A DNA stretch of 37,720 nucleotides. It comes from an uncultured bacterium. Its GTDB lineage: Bacteria > Patescibacteriota > Patescibacteriia > JAXHNJ01. A program made the position numbers and the translations under genes. The notes under the pieces are model-generated. The model did not search any database. It saw only the letters and a program-made list of their open reading frames with translations, and was not told where the DNA came from. The DNA lies in assembly GCA_965370265.1 (NCBI GenBank), contig CBDUSL010000003.1:1-37720 (forward strand). Direction: 5' to 3'. Below, in pieces: positions 24,669 through 37,056 of this stretch (its first letter is position 1; every line of letters starts with the position of its first letter).

Positions 24669-26060
24669 TTACAAAGAAAACTCAATTTTTTCTGCTGCCA
24701 AATTAATAGCTTCATAAACACTTTGGTTTTCTAGTGCCACTGAATCTATCATTTTAGCGAAGTAATTTTCAACGGCTGTTGCATCCCGACCTGTGTACCA
24801 GTTCTTGGCGGTAAGGGCCTGATTGGCCCATATTTCAAGCCCCTGATTATTAACCTGGTCTTTAAGAATAGATTTAAGAGGAGATATTTGCCCGGTTTTT
24901 TCGATATATTCTTTATTTCTATTTTCCCGAGCAATGAATTGGACAAGATCCCAGGCTTCTTGGGGAACAGAAGATTTTTTAGCCACAGTATGAACCCAAT
25001 ATTTTCCAAAGTTAATTTGAACAGGATTGCCGGCTTGATTAATAACTCTGTCTAGACCAGGTGTAATATGAAACATACTGGTGATTCCATAATTCAAACC
25101 CCCTGTCCTCTCAATCTCTTTTTTGTCGGCCAGAATGCCGATATAGTAAGCTGATTTACCGCTGTTAAAACTATCTAAGCTTTTTGGCTGAGAAGAATTC
25201 CAAGAATATGTTTCTTTGTTAAAATTAGCAAAAGTAGAATAGAACTCTAATGCTCTTGCACCTAAGCTTTCGGTTTCCACTAAATCATCAAAAGTTATTG
25301 TTTCTCCGTCAGTAGAGATCATACTGGCCCCGTTTTGCATCATGAGAAGAGAGAGAATTTCATAGTAATGATTAATATTGGAAGAAAGCCCAAGGGCAAT
25401 AGCTGACTGAAGAATATTATTTTGGTTGTCAAGAAGAGTAAGTTTTGAAGACTGGCTTACTAATTCATTCCAGGTTTTAGCCGGCTCTACAATAAAAGCA
25501 TTATTTAAGAGGTCTTTGTTATAGTAGAGGGCGAGCGTATCTATACTATAGGGAAGACCATAAATTTGCCTTACTCCAGCCGTATTTGTATAAACAATAT
25601 CATCATAAATGATATCAATATAATCATTTTGAATATCCCGTGTAGTAGGGGAAATTTTGGTCACTTTATTTATTTGAGTAGTGTTTCTAAAAAAAACTTT
25701 TTTTGTCTCATAGTAAGATGTAGTTATTTTACTTGGCATTGGTTTTATAAATTCCTGATATTTTTTTACCCAAGTTGAGGGAAGAGTGAAAATATCCGGA
25801 CCTTGATCACGTGCCCAAGCTTGAATTAATTTTTCTTCATATTCCCCAATCTTTAATTCACGAAAATTAACAGTGACATAAGGATGGTAGCTCTGAAAAG
25901 CAGTTACTATTTCTTTATAGTCATTTTCACTTCCTTCAACGATCCAATAATTTAGAGTAACTGGAACAGGAGTCACGCTTGAGCTGCGCATAAATAAACC
26001 GACAATAATTGGTATTGAAATTAGTAATAGAATAGCGCCGATAATTATATATTTTCTCAT
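24669..26060 (-). CDS. Extracellular solute-binding protein (carbohydrate ABC SBP-like), membrane anchored
   Basis: N-terminal TM, GPDIF, IYGLPYSIDTLALYYNKDLL, PAKTWNEL, F.SGKSA, EAWDLVQF. Confidence 0.85.
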   Translation of the reverse strand: MRKYIIIGAILLLISIPIIVGLFMRSSSVTPVPVTLNYWIVEGSENDYKEIVTAFQSYHPYVTVNFRELKIGEYEEKLIQAWARDQGPDIFTLPSTWVKKYQEFIKPMPSKITTSYYETKKVFFRNTTQINKVTKISPTTRDIQNDYIDIIYDDIVYTNTAGVRQIYGLPYSIDTLALYYNKDLLNNAFIVEPAKTWNELVSQSSKLTLLDNQNNILQSAIALGLSSNINHYYEILSLLMMQNGASMISTDGETITFDDLVETESLGARALEFYSTFANFNKETYSWNSSQPKSLDSFNSGKSAYYIGILADKKEIERTGGLNYGITSMFHITPGLDRVINQAGNPVQINFGKYWVHTVAKKSSVPQEAWDLVQFIARENRNKEYIEKTGQISPLKSILKDQVNNQGLEIWANQALTAKNWYTGRDATAVENYFAKMIDSVALENQSVYEAINLAAEKIEFSL

Positions 26061-26923
26061 TTTTTTCGCTTAAGATATTCTTTAAGTTGTTTTTTTGTTT
26101 CTGGGTGTTTGAGACCAAATTCAATATTAGCTTTTAGGTAACCAAACTTACTGCCCGTGTCGTAATATTTTGCTTTTTTAATAACGCAAGCCATTACCTT
26201 TTCTTCTTTGGCTAATTTATTAATCGCGTCAACCAACCATACCTCTCCGCCTTTGCCGGGCTTTTGTTTTTTTAAATGCCTAAAAATCCCGGGGGTAAGT
26301 AGATAGGCGCCGTGGGCCGCGAGTCTTGAGGGCGCTTCTTTGGCCGAAGGTTTTTCAACGATTTCTTCAATTTGGTGAATATTTCCCTCAACCCTCTTGG
26401 CCTTAGCAATGCCGTATTTACTTACTTCTTCTTTTTCGACTTTAATAGCAGAAATGACCGAACACTTATATTTTTTATAAACATCCAGCATTTGTTTTAC
26501 CCGGGGCGGAGTTGAATAGATAAATTCGTCTCCCCAAATAACCAAAAAAGGTTCATCTCCAATTAGGGGTTCGGCGCATAAAGCGGGGGTGCCGTTACCG
26601 TAAGGCCCTTTTTGGCGGATGAAAATAAAATTCGCTAAATCAGCAATTCTTTTTATTTCTTGAGATTTGCTTTTCTTGCCGGTTTTATTTAATTTTTCTT
26701 CCAATTCTACTGAGTGGTCAAAATGATCTTCAATTGCTTTCTTATTTTTATCGGTAACGATGATAATATCTTTGATACCGGAGGAGGAAAGCTCTTCTAC
26801 CACGAATTGAATGACAGGCTTGTCTACGATAGGCAGCATTTCTTTGGGTAAGGCTTTGGTTGCAGGAAGAAAGCGGGTACCGAGTCCAGCCGCTGGTATT
26901 ACTGCTTTGGTTACTTTGGTCAT
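26057..26923 (-). CDS. galU: UTP--glucose-1-phosphate uridylyltransferase
   Basis: KAVIPAAGLGTRFLPATKALPKEMLPIVDKP, IEDHFD, VEKP, YDTGSK.GYLKA. Confidence 0.95.
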   Translation of the reverse strand: MTKVTKAVIPAAGLGTRFLPATKALPKEMLPIVDKPVIQFVVEELSSSGIKDIIIVTDKNKKAIEDHFDHSVELEEKLNKTGKKSKSQEIKRIADLANFIFIRQKGPYGNGTPALCAEPLIGDEPFLVIWGDEFIYSTPPRVKQMLDVYKKYKCSVISAIKVEKEEVSKYGIAKAKRVEGNIHQIEEIVEKPSAKEAPSRLAAHGAYLLTPGIFRHLKKQKPGKGGEVWLVDAINKLAKEEKVMACVIKKAKYYDTGSKFGYLKANIEFGLKHPETKKQLKEYLKRKK

Positions 26924-33321: not shown

Positions 33322-34323
33322 CTAGGAGACGGCTTTTAAAAGCCGGGATTTAAGTTCGGCTATCACCTTTTTGGGAAGAGGTTTGTCCTGAAAGTGTGAA
33401 TCAGCGAAGAAATCCCTGAGCTCGTCTTTGGTTATCAGACCTTTATAGCCGTAAAAACAGGCAATTTCTCTAAGGTCATAAACGTCGGTAAATTCGAGTT
33501 TTTTGATAATGGGAATATCTTCATTGGTAGCGGTAATGAAAGTTCTAACCAGTCGGTTTTTGAACTTTTCGAGAGTGCTTTCCAGCTTGATTCTTTTCAG
33601 GTAGCGGATGATTTCGTTTTCGTAGACCTTGTAGTACTGCGGTTTAAGCCGGCAAAGCTGAACAAGGAAGACGATCATGACACCGAGTTTGGAGTAATGG
33701 CGAAAAATGCCGATTTTGCGGGTAATAGGGTCTTCTGGTTCAGGAATTTCGAGCAGGTAGTGCGAGCCCACCTTGATTTTCGGGGGGACAAGATCCACAT
33801 AAATAGCCTTCTGGCCATCCGAGCTTACGAAATTCCTGGGAATCAGATCAATGCCGACCGACATTCGGTCGCCTTTGTCAGCCTTCATAAGGTTGCCTAG
33901 ACAGTGAAACGAGAGTCTCATATTCTCGACAATTTCCTTCTCGGACTTAGCGCCTCGCACACTTCTTTCCAGACTCTCGCCCATAAAAGGACTAATGTGG
34001 ATGACAAGAAGTCGGCCGTCAAAAGGCAGAAGAACAAATCCCTTGTCGGGAGGAAGACAGACATTTAGCTTGCGAAGTTTTTCACAGTAAGCAAGAACAT
34101 GTCCGACAAAGGTAGTTGCTTCTCCAGTCGGGAGCTTTCTTTTCTCGAAGTAAATTTTAAGTACCTGAGAAGAACCATCAGGGTGTTTTGCTTGAAAAAC
34201 ATAGCTGTTGTGTGAATCAAGAAAAGTTCTCTGAGTAATGTAGCGGATGCCAAGAATTTCTACTTCCATACCTTCTTCAATTTTTCCAAAGAAACTGTTT
34301 TTTTTCTTTTTATTCTTAGTCAT
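33322..34323 (-). CDS. Hypothetical protein with protein-kinase-like fold motifs
   Basis: QVLKIY (beta3 Lys), GIDLIPRNF (DxxxxN), YVDLVPP (DFG-equivalent Asp); SD-like GGGGGA upstream. Confidence 0.6.
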   Translation of the reverse strand: MTKNKKKKNSFFGKIEEGMEVEILGIRYITQRTFLDSHNSYVFQAKHPDGSSQVLKIYFEKRKLPTGEATTFVGHVLAYCEKLRKLNVCLPPDKGFVLLPFDGRLLVIHISPFMGESLERSVRGAKSEKEIVENMRLSFHCLGNLMKADKGDRMSVGIDLIPRNFVSSDGQKAIYVDLVPPKIKVGSHYLLEIPEPEDPITRKIGIFRHYSKLGVMIVFLVQLCRLKPQYYKVYENEIIRYLKRIKLESTLEKFKNRLVRTFITATNEDIPIIKKLEFTDVYDLREIACFYGYKGLITKDELRDFFADSHFQDKPLPKKVIAELKSRLLKAVS

Positions 34324-34431
34324 TGTTTGATCCCCCGTGATTGTAGTTTGATAATTGTGCCAATGAAATAATGAAAGGAACTTATATATTTTTCAATAAT
34401 TTCCATAATTGAAAAATACATTTTTCCCTTA

Positions 34432-35268
34432 TTATTTATTCCATTCTTTAAGAACTTCCTTATAAATCTCCGGCGTAGAAACATCAAACCATTGGCCCTC
34501 AAAGAGATAGCCATAAAGCCTACCTTCTTCAACTAATTTCGGAAAAACATCTTTTTCCAGCATGGAATATCCTTTTTTAGGAATGTAGTTTAAAATTTGC
34601 GGATCACAAATAAAAAGTCCGGCATTAATAAGATGTGAGATTCTTTTTCCTTTTTCCGGTTTTTCTGTAAACTTTACAATCTTGTTACCATGTAGTCTGA
34701 CTACACCGAATTCATAAGGCTTGTCGCAGGAAGTTAAGGCCATGGTGGTCAAGCCGTTATGAGTTTGATGAAAATCAATTAAATCAAACAGGTCTATTTC
34801 AATCAATGTGTCTCCATACAAAAGAATAAAAGTTTTATTATTGATAAAATCTTTGGCTCGAAGCAGGGCGGTTCCTGTACCATTTTCTTTTCTTTCTTCT
34901 GTGTATGATATGTTTACCCCGAAACGAGAGCCATTTCCAAAATGGGATTTAATTTTTTCGCCCAAATATCCAATCACAATATGAATTTCCCTAATATTAT
35001 TTTCTTTTAAAAGTTCAATAGTGTATTCGAGAATTGGTTTATTTTTAACAGGAATCAGGGTTTTTGGCATTTCATAAGTAAACGGACGCATCTTTATGCC
35101 TCGTCCTCCCGCTAAAATAACCGCCTTTTTAATTTTAGGGGAGAGGGTCTGGGAGAGAAGATATTCAATAGCGTGGGAACGATTACGGATTCTTGCGCCA
35201 TCAACCACCTTATCGATTTCCAGCAATAATTCTTTTTTTAGAGTAATGGTAAGTCTTTTTCTATCCAT
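34432..35268 (-). CDS. NikR/CopG-type ribbon-helix-helix domain fused to sugar-phosphate nucleotidyltransferase domain
   Basis: N-term RKRLTITLKKELL.EID......NRSHAIEYLL; then AVILAGGRGIKMRPFT..PK.L, GTG.AL, YGD, FTEKP, INAG, WFDVSTPE. Confidence 0.88.
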   Translation of the reverse strand: MDRKRLTITLKKELLLEIDKVVDGARIRNRSHAIEYLLSQTLSPKIKKAVILAGGRGIKMRPFTYEMPKTLIPVKNKPILEYTIELLKENNIREIHIVIGYLGEKIKSHFGNGSRFGVNISYTEERKENGTGTALLRAKDFINNKTFILLYGDTLIEIDLFDLIDFHQTHNGLTTMALTSCDKPYEFGVVRLHGNKIVKFTEKPEKGKRISHLINAGLFICDPQILNYIPKKGYSMLEKDVFPKLVEEGRLYGYLFEGQWFDVSTPEIYKEVLKEWNK

Positions 35269-35304
35269 ATATTAAAATAAATAAAATAAGTAAATAGTCA
35301 ATTA

Positions 35305-35350
35305 ATCATACATTGTCATATATTGTATGATAATATTAATATTTAGTCAA
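35305..35350 (-). promoter_or_regulatory. sigma70 promoter overlapped by a palindromic candidate operator
   Basis: Minus strand TTGACT(35345-50)-N17-TACAAT(35322-27); inverted repeat ATCATACA(35305-12)-N11-TGTATGAT(35324-31). Confidence 0.75.
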
Positions 35351-35583
35351 TAGTTATATGTGGATAAAAAAATGGCTAATATCAGGTAAAAAAGTATAAC
35401 AAATAAGTCAAAAAGAGTATTTTATGTTATTATATTATTGTTATACAAGTAAAAAGACAAAAAATATTTCTTACAAGCAGGAAAAGGGTTACGCAATTCC
35501 TTCTGAACTGCCGACTTTAAGTGGTTCAGTAATGATTATTTGAAGAAAGAGTTTAGGAAAAAATAAATTGATTTATTAAAAAC

Positions 35584-37056
35584 GTGCGGAATAACCAAAT
35601 ATTTTTTATCTATAAAAATTACCTGAATATAATTTTTGGGATTTTTTTGATTTCAATCCCTTTTACTATTGGGTCAGCATTAAATTGGCGCCTATCTTAT
35701 TTTTATGAATACGAATGGGCATTTTTATATTTTGGTGATATTATTCTTGTGCTATTTTTAGGTTTAGGAATTTTTATGTCTATTAAATTTAGGAAAATTC
35801 ATGAGAGTGATGTGATAGAGGTTATTAAAAAGCCTGTTGTTTATAGTTTATTTATTTTTTTATTTTTTGCTTTCTTTTCCTTAACTTTTTCTTTCTTATT
35901 TAGTGTGAGCGTTTACAATTTCATTAGACTCGCAATAACAGTTTTTTTTATACTATTATTGGCTGTATTAATTAAGAGAAAATGGATTAATTTAAAATTA
36001 ATACTAGCGGTCATTGGTTTTTCTGCCGTATTTCAGGCCGTGATCGGTTTTGTGCAATTTATTAAACAATCGGGGCTAGGTTTAAATTTGCTAGGGGAAC
36101 AACTTTTAGCAGCTGGTTACATGGGTAATGTGGCGGATCATTTGGGTCTGGCGGTAGTAGGAATACAAAAACAAATTTACATTCGGGCGTATGGGACTTT
36201 TCCTCATCCGAATGTCTTAGCTGGTTTTTTGGTCATAGGTTTATTTTGCCTTTATTATTTTTATTTTGAAAGTGAAAAAAACCGTATTAATTATATTCAT
36301 AACTCCAAAAATAATTTTTTCGTTTATATAAAAACTATTTCTTTTTGGAAAAGAATAGTGATAATAATTGGTATTTTTTTAATTCTTGTTGGTTTAATTT
36401 TTACGTTTTCTCGTACGGCTCTTTTTATCGCTTTAATTTTGACGATTTTACTATCCCTTATCTTGTTATTAAGATTTAGAAACGAGCGGTCATTAATTTT
36501 GCGGTGGTTAAGTGTAGTGACTATTATTTTTACTATAGTATTTTCTTTTTTCCACTGGACTATTTTTTCCCGCCCGGCGTTGAACAAAGATGAAGCAGCT
36601 GTATACGAACGCGTTATTTATAATAAGATAGCTTTAGATATTATAAAACAACCGAAGAATTTTTTTGTCGGTGTGGGTTTAGGCGATCAAGTAGTATACA
36701 GTTTAGATCAGCGCTTGTATCAAGTTCATGGCTTAAATCAATATTTACAATGGCAACCAATCCATAATATTTATCTTCTCACTTTTTCGGAAATAGGTGT
36801 TTTTGGTTTTTTAGCCTTGATTATTTTTCTTGTTTTTTTAATATATTTTTGTTTAAAAAAACTAAGGGGGATAAAAAATTTATGTGCCACTGAAAGTGGA
36901 CTATTTATTCTTATGATGTTAATTAGTCTGATTTTATTTGGTTTTTTTGATCATTTTATGTGGACGCACCAACCGGGTAAACTTATGTTTTGGTTGGTGG
37001 TTGGCTTACTTTTAGGTTTTATTTTAAGCCAAAAAGAAACTCTTTCTAAAACATAA
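35584..37056 (+). CDS. O-antigen ligase / O-oligosaccharyltransferase family (Wzy_C) membrane protein
   Basis: RAYGTFPHPNVLAG, TFSRTA, ER, GVGLG, QPIHNIYL...EIG, FDH. GTG start uncertain. Confidence 0.85.
   Translation: MRNNQIFFIYKNYLNIIFGIFLISIPFTIGSALNWRLSYFYEYEWAFLYFGDIILVLFLGLGIFMSIKFRKIHESDVIEVIKKPVVYSLFIFLFFAFFSLTFSFLFSVSVYNFIRLAITVFFILLLAVLIKRKWINLKLILAVIGFSAVFQAVIGFVQFIKQSGLGLNLLGEQLLAAGYMGNVADHLGLAVVGIQKQIYIRAYGTFPHPNVLAGFLVIGLFCLYYFYFESEKNRINYIHNSKNNFFVYIKTISFWKRIVIIIGIFLILVGLIFTFSRTALFIALILTILLSLILLLRFRNERSLILRWLSVVTIIFTIVFSFFHWTIFSRPALNKDEAAVYERVIYNKIALDIIKQPKNFFVGVGLGDQVVYSLDQRLYQVHGLNQYLQWQPIHNIYLLTFSEIGVFGFLALIIFLVFLIYFCLKKLRGIKNLCATESGLFILMMLISLILFGFFDHFMWTHQPGKLMFWLVVGLLLGFILSQKETLSKT

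What the first reader, a model, noticed from the sequence alone, without database searches (positions are those of the whole stretch)
34432..35350. NikR-like RHH fused to a sugar nucleotidyltransferase, with NikR-type half-sites over its own promoter
Seen: N-terminus RLTITL...NRSHAI joined to an NTP-transferase domain with slightly altered motifs (GRGIKMRP for GxGTRLRP; DVST for DIGT). Upstream, TTGACT-N17-TACAAT is overlapped at the -10 and start site by ATCATACA-N11-TGTATGAT, with hexamers TCATAC (35306), TCATAT (35316) and GTATGA (35325). Known: E. coli NikR begins MQRVTITL...NRSEAI and binds GTATGA-N16-TCATAC through that beta strand. Inference: the same reading head and half-site in a different orientation and spacing, i.e. 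an autorepressing one-component regulator or trigger enzyme that senses sugar-1-phosphate or NDP-sugar, and a candidate controller of the surrounding carbohydrate genes. I saw no second intergenic copy of the palindrome in this window.
Basis: partly seen in the sequence, partly recalled or inferred. Interest (0 to 1): 0.8.

Follow-up and report, generated by a model that had tools for sequence, protein, structure and literature searches.

The report
Sugar-enzyme-derived RHH repressor in Patescibacteria
A small DNA-binding head like that of the nickel repressor NikR is fused to a sugar-nucleotide-enzyme-like domain and most likely switches off its own promoter by sitting on GTATGAT words repeated every 10 bases, a regulator type I found no description of.

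Summary

The palindrome alone is not above chance (343 of 1000 shuffles). What orthologues conserve is a tandem direct repeat, GTATGAT-N3-GTATGAT (the NikR half-site word, 10-bp period), on the gene's strand at or just after the -10. It is perfect in 20 of 79 upstream regions and within 2 mismatches in 32 of 79. The window carries three heptads in 10-bp phase (35331-35305), and they hold the best-scoring site of the whole 788-kb genome.

In 401 Patescibacteria genomes, 21 of the 22 with a perfect site encode this RHH head. Sites exceed the control only in genomes that have the head.

Best reading: an autorepressing one-component regulator whose enzyme-derived domain senses a sugar phosphate or nucleotide sugar. 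DNA binding, ligand and catalysis are untested. It is a new variant of a known kind (RHH-enzyme fusions such as PutA).

The parts
34432..35268 (-). Gene for the 278-aa RHH + nucleotidyltransferase-like protein
   Evidence: ORF list. Of 3452 homologues, the best 120 span 270-307 aa and cover 96-100% of the query.
35128..35268 (-). RHH DNA-binding head (residues 1-47): strand R5-L-T-I-T-L10, helix 14-24, turn, helix 30-42 starting at N29-R-S-H-A-I-E35
   Evidence: Profile versus PDB: NikR E 5.4e-5, CopG 5.9e-3. Pfam RHH_1 in 77 of 79 heads at E<=1, best 2e-6. AF2 helices. IRNRSHAIE is invariant in A1.
34450..35127 (-). Sugar-1-phosphate nucleotidyltransferase-like domain (residues 48-273), the proposed ligand sensor
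   Evidence: Pfam PF00483, 147.8 bits. Foldseek top hits: tlr0611 8x7s, VTC1/GMPPB, MurU, RmlA.
35083..35106 (-). Altered signature loop G55-R-G-I-K-M-R-P62 (canonical G-x-G-T-R-x-x-P)
   Evidence: The four unfused paralogues of the same genome all keep T-R. Only 9 of 79 orthologues keep T-R.
35345..35350 (-). -35-like hexamer TTGACT
   Evidence: A TTGAC-type hexamer (TTGAC/TTGAT/TTGCA/TTGCC) lies within 45 nt upstream of the site in 31 of 32 tandem-site promoters.
35322..35327 (-). -10-like hexamer TACAAT (17-nt spacer)
   Evidence: The same TTGACT-N17-TACAAT is in the closest relative L157.
35325..35331 (+). Heptad A, GTATGAT on the + strand (inverted relative to the gene); overlaps the -10.
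   Evidence: An in-phase inverted heptad is also in L157, L158 and L001, and in 5 of 32 tandem sites.
35315..35321 (-). Heptad B, ATATGAC (direct, 2 mismatches to the consensus); covers the expected start site
35305..35311 (-). Heptad C, GTATGAT (direct, consensus); ends 36 nt before the ATG.
33322..34323 (-). Downstream same-strand gene, a DUF6206-like protein (333 aa); possible co-transcript or regulon member
   Evidence: Weak Pfam DUF6206 hit, E 1.8e-5, below the cut-off. ESM Atlas neighbours are DUF6206 clusters. Homologues lie downstream on the same strand in 11 of 78 loci. In G108 (L120) a perfect tandem site lies 241 nt upstream of the 344-aa same-strand ORF that follows the gene, the size of the c2 DUF6206-like gene that one search places next to the gene in L020; I matched the two by length only.

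Best explanation
The gene encodes a one-component transcription factor. Its N-terminal 45 residues form a NikR/CopG-type ribbon-helix-helix. This presumably pairs with a second chain and inserts an R-x-T-x-T two-stranded sheet into the major groove.

Each dimer is inferred to read one heptad, GTATGAT, which contains the half-site word of E. coli NikR. Heptads are set one helical turn (10 bp) apart, so neighbouring dimers sit on the same face of the DNA. They can then touch through their C-terminal domains.

In this window three heptads (35331-35305) cover the -10 and the start site of the gene's own promoter. Occupancy should therefore block RNA polymerase, giving autorepression.

The C-terminal domain derives from a sugar-1-phosphate nucleotidyltransferase. 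It keeps the sugar-phosphate and metal residues but has lost the canonical G-x-G-T-R catalytic loop. Its most likely job is to bind a sugar-1-phosphate, an NTP or an NDP-sugar and thereby change cooperative DNA binding.

Shown: the domain architecture, its conservation, the motif, the motif's position, and its genome-level co-occurrence with the protein. Inferred: the protein-DNA contact, the sign of regulation, the ligand, and the loss of catalysis.
For: 1. RHH head. A profile of 79 heads hits NikR (1q5v/2hzv, E 5.4e-5), CopG (5.9e-3) and P. horikoshii NikR (0.058) as the only 4 distinct PDB sequences at E<=10. 77 of 79 heads match Pfam RHH_1 at E<=1. AF2 gives an extended N-terminus plus two helices. 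The head is the most conserved part of the protein: R3, R5, L-T-I-T and IRNRSHAIE are invariant in 40 sequences that are 55-78% identical overall.

2. Operator. GTATGAT-N3-GTATGAT lies on the sense strand within 300 nt upstream in 20 of 79 regions (perfect), 9 of 79 (1 mismatch) and 3 of 79 (2 mismatches). In the 78 loci (479 kb), 44 of 46 sites with <=1 mismatch are on the gene's strand.

3. Own genome. The window's site is the best match to a profile built from 31 other orthologues (18.1 versus 11.2 bits). No other intergenic site exists.

4. Closest relative. L157 (86% identical) has TTGACT-N17-TACAAT followed directly by a perfect tandem, with an in-phase inverted heptad before it.

5. Co-occurrence in 401 Patescibacteria genomes. 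There are 28 perfect sites against 1 control site. 21 of the 22 genomes with a perfect site encode the head, against 53 of 401 overall. At <=1 mismatch, genomes with the head have 83 sites against 26 control, with 42 of 53 genomes hit. Genomes without it have 69 against 73, with 57 of 348 hit (my hand tally). Within families: f30, 2 of 3 versus 0 of 10; f36, 4 of 12 versus 0 of 8.

6. Position. A 9-nt gap after a TTGAC-type hexamer occurs in 13 of 32 sites. By my reading of the sequences, this and the other registers (4-6, 15-16 and 28-29 nt) place the tandem on the -10 or just after it.

7. NikR's operator is GTATGA-N16-TCATAC (PMC7055735, passage in section 2.1).

8. Sensor trend. T-R is kept in 4 of 4 unfused paralogues but in only 9 of 79 fused orthologues. 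Short 208-223-aa paralogues delete the phosphate loop and the EKP segment. Six further representatives show degenerate or replaced loops; one other fragment keeps the G-x-G-V-K-M-R-P form.
Against: No experiment exists. In the window's own protein RHH_1 stays below Pfam's cut-off (16.8 versus 20.5 bits).

47 of 79 upstream regions have no tandem within 2 mismatches in 300 nt. Some of these sit in operons or have sites 330-1033 nt upstream. The archaeal loci carry a different element.

The heptad contains a -10-like TATGAT, so part of its conservation may be promoter function.

Genomes with the head also have more control hits per genome (26 in 53 versus 73 in 348). Related genomes are not independent.

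Only 8 of 27 unique perfect sites in the random sample precede the gene or its operon. The other targets are heterogeneous: glutaredoxin plus MscS, an aminotransferase, a GH63/trehalase-like hydrolase, and unknown small ORFs. By their sequence context, several 1-mismatch sites in 'large regulon' genomes appear to lie inside coding sequence (my reading, not tested).

The window's site is degenerate (2 mismatches). K59 might still support catalysis, and the EKP lysine is conserved (79 of 79), as are D153 and D262 in A1. Loss of enzyme activity is therefore not shown.
Confidence: 0.65

Rival explanations
1. Trigger enzyme. The protein is a fully active NDP-sugar pyrophosphorylase that also represses its own gene, as PutA or BirA do. 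The enzyme domain is not a mere sensor, and substrate turnover controls DNA binding.
For: The Pfam NTP_transferase match is strong. The EKP lysine is present in 79 of 79 orthologues, R61 in 75 of 78, and D153 and D262 are invariant in A1. K59 is chemically close to Arg. The eight archaeal loci and L016 keep the canonical G-x-G-T-R. In 7 loci, all archaeal by record title, a PGM/PMM gene is the next gene downstream.
Against: The Arg position is K, N, Q, H, A or D in 66 of 78 orthologues and the Thr position is V, L or I in 61 of 78. The genome has four canonical paralogues to do the chemistry. Loop-deleted paralogues keep the same head.
Confidence: 0.25
2. The operator is the inverted repeat ATCATACA-N11-TGTATGAT, bound NikR-style by two heads held apart by an oligomeric core.
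For: The palindrome is exact and unique in the window. TCATAC-N13-GTATGA is kept in L157 and partly in L001/L160. An inverted heptad sits at the in-phase position in 5 of 32 tandem sites, against 0-2 at other offsets.
Against: Palindromes of this size arise in 343 of 1000 shuffles. 27 of the 29 two-or-more-heptad arrays found upstream of orthologues are purely direct. In the window and its family relatives the left arm overlaps the -10 hexamer, which alone could conserve it.
Confidence: 0.12
3. The tandem TATGAT words are promoter elements (duplicated -10 boxes for the housekeeping or an alternative sigma factor), and the RHH head binds something else or only serves oligomerisation.
For: TATGAT is a good -10. 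In different loci one or the other copy sits 16-17 nt from a -35-like hexamer. Some extra sites precede unrelated genes such as prfB-like.
Against: The G before each TATGAT is kept in 29 and 30 of 32 sites and the 10-bp period is invariant. In L019, L022, L027, L157 and the window, the tandem lies downstream of a separate, complete -10. Sites exceed the control only in genomes that encode the head. The word equals the half-site of the nearest solved RHH relative.
Confidence: 0.08

Closest known systems
NikR (nickel-responsive RHH repressor, E. coli; PDB 1q5v, 2hzv)
   Same: It is the best solved relative of the head (E 5.4e-5). It shares the R-x-T-x-T strand and the N-R-S-x-A-I start of helix 2. 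Its operator is built from the word GTATGA (PMC7055735, section 2.1). Its operator overlaps its target promoter (recalled).
   Different: This protein has no NikR C-terminal nickel-binding domain; its C-terminus is NTP_transferase. Its half-sites are mostly direct repeats 10 bp apart, not inverted repeats 16 bp apart. The effector cannot be nickel.
PutA (trifunctional proline utilisation A: RHH + PRODH + P5CDH)
   Same: An N-terminal RHH is fused to a metabolic enzyme, and the protein acts as an autogenous repressor (abstract of PMC5293562, seen in the listing).
   Different: The enzyme domains are unrelated. PutA is catalytically active and is switched by redox state and membrane binding (recalled). 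Here the catalytic loop is degenerate and the regulator is small (278 aa).
Omega repressor (pSM19035), CopG and MetJ: RHH proteins that bind repeated short units
   Same: One RHH dimer binds per short unit. Units occur as direct or inverted repeats and binding is cooperative (recalled). CopG is the second PDB hit.
   Different: Omega heptads abut every 7 bp and met-boxes every 8 bp (recalled). Here heptads are spaced at 10 bp, and each chain carries a 230-aa extra domain.
GMPPA, the non-catalytic paralogue of GDP-mannose pyrophosphorylase (PDB 7d72-7d74)
   Same: It is a nucleotidyltransferase-fold protein used as a sensor of the nucleotide sugar (function recalled). GMPPA/GMPPB chains are among the sequence and fold matches.
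   Different: GMPPA regulates an enzyme by protein-protein contact. It has no DNA-binding domain.
Enzyme-regulator fusions BirA, NadR and archaeal RbkR
   Same: A metabolic enzyme domain is fused to a DNA-binding domain that controls the same pathway (RbkR: abstract of PMC5397151 in the listing; BirA and NadR recalled).
   Different: Those use (winged) helix-turn-helix heads and active enzymes. None uses an RHH head or a sugar nucleotidyltransferase.

Membership tests
Ribbon-helix-helix superfamily (Pfam RHH_1 / CopG-Arc-MetJ) | Sequence profile match to RHH families | tested here: met
   77 of 79 heads match RHH_1 at E<=1, best 2e-6. The window's own head scores 16.8 bits, below the 20.5 cut-off. 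A family profile hits NikR at 5.4e-5 and CopG at 5.9e-3.
Ribbon-helix-helix superfamily (Pfam RHH_1 / CopG-Arc-MetJ) | Strand-helix-helix topology in about 45 residues | tested here: inconclusive
   AF2 gives helices 14-24 and 30-42 (full length) or 12-21 and 30-42 (head alone). In both, the N-terminus is extended but not called as a strand, as expected for a monomer. Foldseek of the head alone gave nothing significant.
Ribbon-helix-helix superfamily (Pfam RHH_1 / CopG-Arc-MetJ) | Intertwined dimer forming a two-stranded antiparallel sheet | not testable with these tools
   Needs solution or crystal data.
NikR family | RHH head with the R-x-T-x-T reading strand | tested here: met
   Aligned residue by residue to NikR. 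R.T.T is present in 71 of 79 orthologues.
NikR family | C-terminal ACT-like nickel-binding tetramerisation domain | tested here: not met
   The Pfam scan shows only NTP_transferase-type domains after residue 47. PDB matches to NikR stop at residue 45.
NikR family | Operator of two inverted half-sites about two turns apart (GTATGA-N16-TCATAC) | tested here: not met
   The word is the same, but the conserved arrangement is direct repeats with a 10-bp period.
Sugar-1-phosphate nucleotidyltransferases (Pfam PF00483) | Domain match above the curated cut-off, and the fold | tested here: met
   147.8 bits against a cut-off of 21.2. Foldseek to 8x7s, E 2.6e-23, TM 0.73.
Sugar-1-phosphate nucleotidyltransferases (Pfam PF00483) | Signature loop G-x-G-T-R-x-x-P with the catalytic Arg (role recalled) | tested here: not met
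   The window reads G-R-G-I-K-M-R-P. T-R is kept in 9 of 79 orthologues and in 4 of 4 unfused paralogues of the genome.
Sugar-1-phosphate nucleotidyltransferases (Pfam PF00483) | (E)KP lysine and acidic metal ligands (roles recalled) | tested here: met
   EKP in 79 of 79. K203, D153 and D262 are invariant in A1.
Sugar-1-phosphate nucleotidyltransferases (Pfam PF00483) | Pyrophosphorylase activity | not testable with these tools
   Needs an enzyme assay.
RHH-enzyme autogenous repressors (PutA type, 'trigger enzymes') | RHH and enzyme-type domain in one chain, with an operator at its own promoter | tested here: met
   Architecture. The operator at its own promoter is inferred from conservation and the genome-wide best score.
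RHH-enzyme autogenous repressors (PutA type, 'trigger enzymes') | Homology of the enzyme part to PutA | tested here: not met
   The enzyme part is NTP_transferase.

The most novel reading that the evidence does not exclude
This is one member of a family of transcription factors spread over Patescibacteria and Altiarchaeota. In it, a NikR-type RHH head captured an NDP-sugar pyrophosphorylase and turned it stepwise into a non-catalytic nucleotide-sugar sensor. The steps would be an intact G-x-G-T-R loop in the archaeal forms, I/V/L-K/N in most bacterial forms, and a deleted loop in the 210-aa forms. The protein would polymerise on 10-bp-phased GTATGAT heptads, and ligand binding to the ex-enzyme domains would set the cooperativity. 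To my knowledge this would be the first transcription factor / operator / effector system defined for Patescibacteria, tied to sugar-phosphate metabolism.
Probability: 0.35. Interest if true: 0.75.

Novelty: new variant of a known kind. Interest (0 to 1): 0.62.

Why it matters
To my knowledge, Patescibacteria have tiny genomes and few recognisable regulators, and no transcription factor with a defined operator is described for them. The four full-text searches named under Tried and rejected found no description of this fusion.

Here the protein, a 17-bp operator and its position on the promoter can all be written down. The protein is annotated in public records only as an NDP-sugar synthase. 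All of this can be tested with a gel shift and a reporter in E. coli.

The head occurs in 53 of 401 sampled Patescibacteria genomes, 7 of them with only the short form. At least 598 stretches in the species-genome collection encode a relative, including archaeal bins.

The family also gives a graded natural series, from an apparently intact enzyme to a loop-deleted remnant on the same DNA-binding head. That makes it a useful case of an enzyme becoming a sensor. If the ligand is a nucleotide sugar, the protein would link cell-envelope or storage sugar supply to transcription in organisms that cannot be cultured alone.

Tried and rejected
- **Homodimer prediction of the head** (complex prediction): no verdict, score 0.32 against a mark of 0.42. 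I do not use it either way.
- **Foldseek of the head-only AF2 model against the PDB**: nothing at E<=0.001. The best rows are TCP-domain transcription factors at E 1.7. Uninformative for a 48-residue monomer.
- **RNA explanations.** Rfam found no family at E<=1 in 34200-35700. The 57-nt leader folds no better than shuffles (z +1.5, 192 of 200 shuffles fold at least as well). I rejected a riboswitch or hairpin reading.
- **Toxin-antitoxin reading** (RHH antitoxin plus nucleotidyltransferase toxin): rejected. The C-terminal domain is a sugar-1-phosphate nucleotidyltransferase, not a Pol-beta/MNT type, and the two parts are one chain.
- **A failed control.** In one search I ran the array finder on reversed sequences. 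The heptad read backwards still contains GTATG, so the control found 18 arrays. It is invalid and I do not use it.
- **Regulon reconstruction in three genomes with many 1-mismatch sites** (G317, G330, G150). Several sites appear, by their sequence context, to lie inside coding sequence, and no coherent function emerged. One exception is a PfkB-like ORF (my reading of its sequence) between a site and the RHH gene in G330 (L150).
- **Pfam of the ORFs after ten perfect sites elsewhere** gave a heterogeneous set.
- **The downstream 333-aa protein.** No PDB relative. Only DUF6206 by weak Pfam and ESM Atlas. Its function stays unknown.
- **Covariation between strand variants and heptad variants** (R-I-S-I-T, R-I-T-I-S): too few cases, so I make no claim.
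- **Literature.** Searches for an RHH + sugar nucleotidyltransferase fusion or a Patescibacteria regulon found nothing on this protein. One search (terms 'RHH' and 'NTP_transferase') returned no paper at all. Subscription journals and supplements are not covered. I opened no supplement.
Full report
**What is in the window.** The ORF 34432..35268 on the minus strand encodes 278 residues. Pfam places NTP_transferase on residues 48-273 (E 5.1e-43). It gives only a sub-threshold RHH_1 match on residues 5-40 (E 0.16 in the full protein; 16.8 bits against a 20.5 cut-off on the isolated head). NCBIfam matches are all below the equivalog cut-offs. They spread over archaeal GlmU-like, long RmlA, mannose-1-P guanylyltransferase and MurU models, so the sugar and nucleotide cannot be named. 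The promoter-like pair TTGACT-N17-TACAAT (35350->35322) is the best of the region.

**Is the head an RHH?** The homologue search returned 3452 proteins. The best 120 are 270-307 aa and cover 96-100% of the query, so the N-terminal extension is part of the family. Public names call them only nucleotidyltransferases or NDP-sugar synthases, and the precomputed Pfam lists show no RHH. In an alignment of 40 homologues that are 55-78% identical overall, the head is the most conserved part. R3, R5, L-T-I-T, D19, D23 and I-R-N-R-S-H-A-I-E are invariant.

A profile of 79 heads (window plus 78 loci) matches only 4 distinct PDB sequences at E<=10. These are E. coli NikR (E 5.4e-5, aligned over 42 residues), CopG (two sequences, 5.9e-3) and P. 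horikoshii NikR (0.058). 77 of the 79 heads match Pfam RHH_1 at E<=1, best 2e-6. AF2 gives an extended N-terminus followed by two helices, at 14-24 and 30-42 in the full-length model, then the nucleotidyltransferase fold (pLDDT 85.6). The head alone gives the same pattern.

The strand R-L-T-I-T-L aligns with NikR's R-V-T-I-T-L. That these Arg and Thr side chains read the bases in the NikR-DNA complex is recalled, not checked here.

**What is conserved upstream.** I took 300 nt upstream of the start codon in 78 of the 80 orthologous loci (two lacked the marker peptide). The recurrent element is a direct tandem, GTATGAT-N3-GTATGAT, always on the gene's strand. It is perfect in 20 of 79 regions, has one mismatch in 9 and two mismatches in 3, the window among the last.

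Over the whole loci (479 kb, both strands) there are 46 sites with at most one mismatch, and 44 of them lie on the gene's strand. 29 loci carry such a site within 300 nt upstream (32 when two-mismatch sites and the window are counted). Six loci have a site 330-1033 nt upstream, often ahead of an upstream same-strand gene. Five loci have one just behind the gene, in front of the next gene.

In the 32 aligned sites, the G and the T-A-T-G-A of both copies are kept in 29-32 of 32, and the 10-bp period never varies.

The closest relative, in the same family (L157, 86% identical), has the same TTGACT-N17-TACAAT. It is followed directly by a perfect GTATGAT-AAA-GTATGAT, with an inverted TTCATAC one period upstream. 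L158 shows the same inverted-direct-direct order.

**The window's site.** Read on the gene's strand, the window has ATCATAC (35331-35325), ATATGAC (35321-35315) and GTATGAT (35311-35305). These are three heptads whose starts are exactly 10 bp apart. This is the only such cluster in the 788-kb genome.

A weight matrix built from 31 orthologous sites, leaving out the window and L001, scores ATATGACAATGTATGAT at 18.1 bits. That is the best 17-mer of the whole genome on either strand; the next scores 11.2. With up to two mismatches the genome has four matches, and by the flanking sequence only this one looks intergenic (my reading).

The palindrome alone is weak evidence. 343 of 1000 dinucleotide shuffles of the intergenic region contain a perfect inverted repeat of this class, and single hexamers are at the chance level. 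An in-phase inverted heptad accompanies 5 of 32 tandem sites, against 0-2 at neighbouring offsets. L018, G013 and G041 show four heptads in the order direct, direct, inverted, inverted.

**Does the motif belong to the protein?**
- In five genomes that carry the gene, perfect sites number one or two per genome, and one of them always precedes the gene.
- In an even sample of 401 Patescibacteria genomes there are 28 perfect sites in 22 genomes, against 1 hit of the reversed control pattern.
- The head profile finds the protein in 53 of the same 401 genomes. In seven of these only a shorter form is present, judged by open-frame length.
- 21 of the 22 genomes with a perfect site are among the 53. 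The exception is 76% complete and belongs to a family whose three other sampled members have the protein.
- With one mismatch allowed (my hand tally), genomes with the protein hold 83 sites against 26 control hits, with 42 of 53 genomes hit. Genomes without it hold 69 sites against 73 control hits, with 57 of 348 hit.
- Within families the contrast holds: f30, 2 of 3 against 0 of 10; f36, 4 of 12 against 0 of 8.

Two caveats apply. Relatives are not independent, and the control is also higher in the genomes with the protein.

**Position and sign.** In 13 of 32 promoters the tandem starts 9 nt after a TTGAC-type hexamer. By my reading of the sequences, a TAGTAT -10 then straddles the spacer and the second heptad. 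With gaps of 4-6 nt the second heptad's TATGAT is the -10, and with 15-16 nt the first one is. With 28-29 nt, and 23 nt in the window, a separate -10 precedes the tandem, which then covers the start site. All these registers put the protein where RNA polymerase must bind or open the DNA. This argues for repression, but nothing here measures it.

**The enzyme-like domain.**
- The fold matches a cyanobacterial UDP-glucose pyrophosphorylase-type protein (8x7s), GDP-mannose pyrophosphorylases, MurU and RmlA.
- The genome has four other NTP_transferase genes, and all four keep G-x-G-T-R. The fused one reads G-R-G-I-K.
- Among 78 of the 79 orthologues in which the loop could be parsed, the Thr position is V, L or I in 61 and T in 12. 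The Arg position is K in 42, N in 14 and R in 12. T-R together is kept in 9: the eight archaeal loci and L016.
- None of those nine has the tandem motif within two mismatches. All 32 loci with the motif have a non-canonical loop.
- The Arg two residues later (75 of 78) and the EKP lysine (79 of 79) are kept, as are two acidic residues in A1.
- A paralogous set of 208-223-aa proteins has the same head. Their domain has lost the phosphate loop, the EKP segment and the C-terminal W-F-D motif (31% identity, E 2e-36 to the window protein).
- A search of 1.84 billion representatives with the head profile finds 198 clusters at E<=1e-10. Their lengths group near 255-290 and 200-225 aa, plus fragments. 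The eight I read all carry nucleotidyltransferase-like sequence after the head. Six show degenerate or replaced loops, one fragment keeps the G-x-G-V-K-M-R-P form, and one breaks off within the loop.

This series suggests a domain drifting from enzyme to ligand sensor. It does not prove that the window protein is inactive.

**Context.** In 35 of 78 loci the 3-kb flanks hold at least one gene whose cluster representative Pfam assigns to sugar-phosphate metabolism. These are PfkB, PFK, GAPDH, PGK, glpX FBPase, PGM/PMM or ROK. TrmB-type regulators occur in 12 loci and DUF6206-like genes in 13-15. The window itself has a DUF6206-like gene, PFK and PfkB next to the gene. No operator precedes them here, so control of the neighbours is not supported for this genome.

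In the unbiased sample, 8 of 27 unique perfect sites precede the gene or its operon and one precedes the next gene. The other 18 lie elsewhere, before a glutaredoxin-MscS pair, an aminotransferase, a GH63/trehalase-like hydrolase, a MurJ-like protein (my reading) and small unknown ORFs. Three of them lie inside long opposite-strand ORFs.

**Comparison and novelty.** The protein works like NikR at the DNA end, with the same head and the same word. It works like PutA in design, as an RHH fused to a metabolic enzyme with its own promoter as target. It is a member of neither family: it has no nickel domain, a different half-site arrangement and an unrelated enzyme. Arrays of short units bound by one dimer each recall the omega repressor and MetJ, and an ex-enzyme used as a nucleotide-sugar sensor recalls GMPPA (both recalled). 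Five full-text searches found no description of this fusion or of a Patescibacteria operator of this kind. I class it as a new variant of a known kind.

**Distribution.** At least 598 stretches in the genome collection encode a relative. The head occurs in 53 of 401 sampled Patescibacteria genomes. It occurs in 8 of 31 genomes in the search of close relatives, which includes the window's own, and in 2 of the 3 other members of the window's family. It also occurs in bins labelled Altiarchaeota or archaeon.

**Verdict.** Interest 0.62.

Noticed in passing
window 35359-35367 (+ strand TGTGGATAA), 8 nt upstream of the -35; also L001-L004, L010, L018, L019, L038, L051, L053 and others: A DnaA-box-like 9-mer (TTATCCACA; the name is recalled) sits just upstream of the -35 of this promoter. 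It is present with <=1 mismatch in 27 of 79 orthologous upstream regions and exactly in 11 (about 0.2 expected by chance). It also precedes other tandem-heptad promoters (L107-L109, L120). The own genome has only 18 exact copies, several followed by TTGAC 9-10 nt later. It may be a second regulator site or a general promoter-upstream element of these bacteria.
   Followed up: partly
L126-L135 (for example L130:519-1157:+, L127:524-1162:+): A paralogous family of 208-223-aa proteins has the same RHH head and a truncated nucleotidyltransferase remnant that lacks the phosphate loop, the EKP segment and the C-terminal motif. Their upstream regions carry TTATGAT- or ATATGAT-like heptad pairs, some inverted and upstream of the -35.
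   Followed up: partly
L047, L049, L056, L057, L067, L072, L073, L074 (archaeal bins): The archaeal orthologues keep the canonical G-x-G-T-R loop. In 7 of the 8 the next gene is a phosphoglucomutase/phosphomannomutase. Five of the 8 have TTCATATAT-type words (an inverted heptad) 6-8 nt after a TATA-like box instead of the bacterial tandem.
   Followed up: partly
window 33322-34323 (-): The downstream 333-aa gene is DUF6206-like and has no solved relative. Homologues follow the RHH gene on the same strand in 11 of 78 loci. In G108 (L120) a perfect tandem site lies 241 nt upstream of the 344-aa ORF that follows the gene, which I matched by length to the DUF6206-like c2 gene of L020.
   Followed up: partly
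L101-L103, L116 (genomes G117, G158, G176): Two or three perfect heptads in tandem (GTATGAT-TAT-GTATGAT, with a third copy in G117) lie next to a divergent gene start. No ORF of 60 aa or more starts within 700 nt downstream. The RHH gene is elsewhere in these genomes. The target may be a small RNA or a small ORF.
   Followed up: no
L026, L032, L037 (between the operator and the start codon): Leaders of 100-150 nt begin with a conserved hairpin-like ATGACAAG-N-CTTGTCATCC right after the tandem site.
   Followed up: no
L025, L040, L045, L046, L059, L063 (Gottesmanbacteria-type loci): Here the gene follows mevalonate-pathway genes (a GHMP kinase and a diphosphomevalonate decarboxylase-like gene) and undecaprenyl-diphosphate synthase on the same strand. 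No tandem motif lies within 300 nt, which suggests a different operon context.
   Followed up: no
window 26057-26923 (-) and contigs C9, C56, C6 of the genome: Four further NTP_transferase genes have canonical loops. By their motifs they look GalU-, RmlA- and ManC-like (my reading). The organism therefore does not depend on the fused protein for nucleotide-sugar synthesis.
   Followed up: partly
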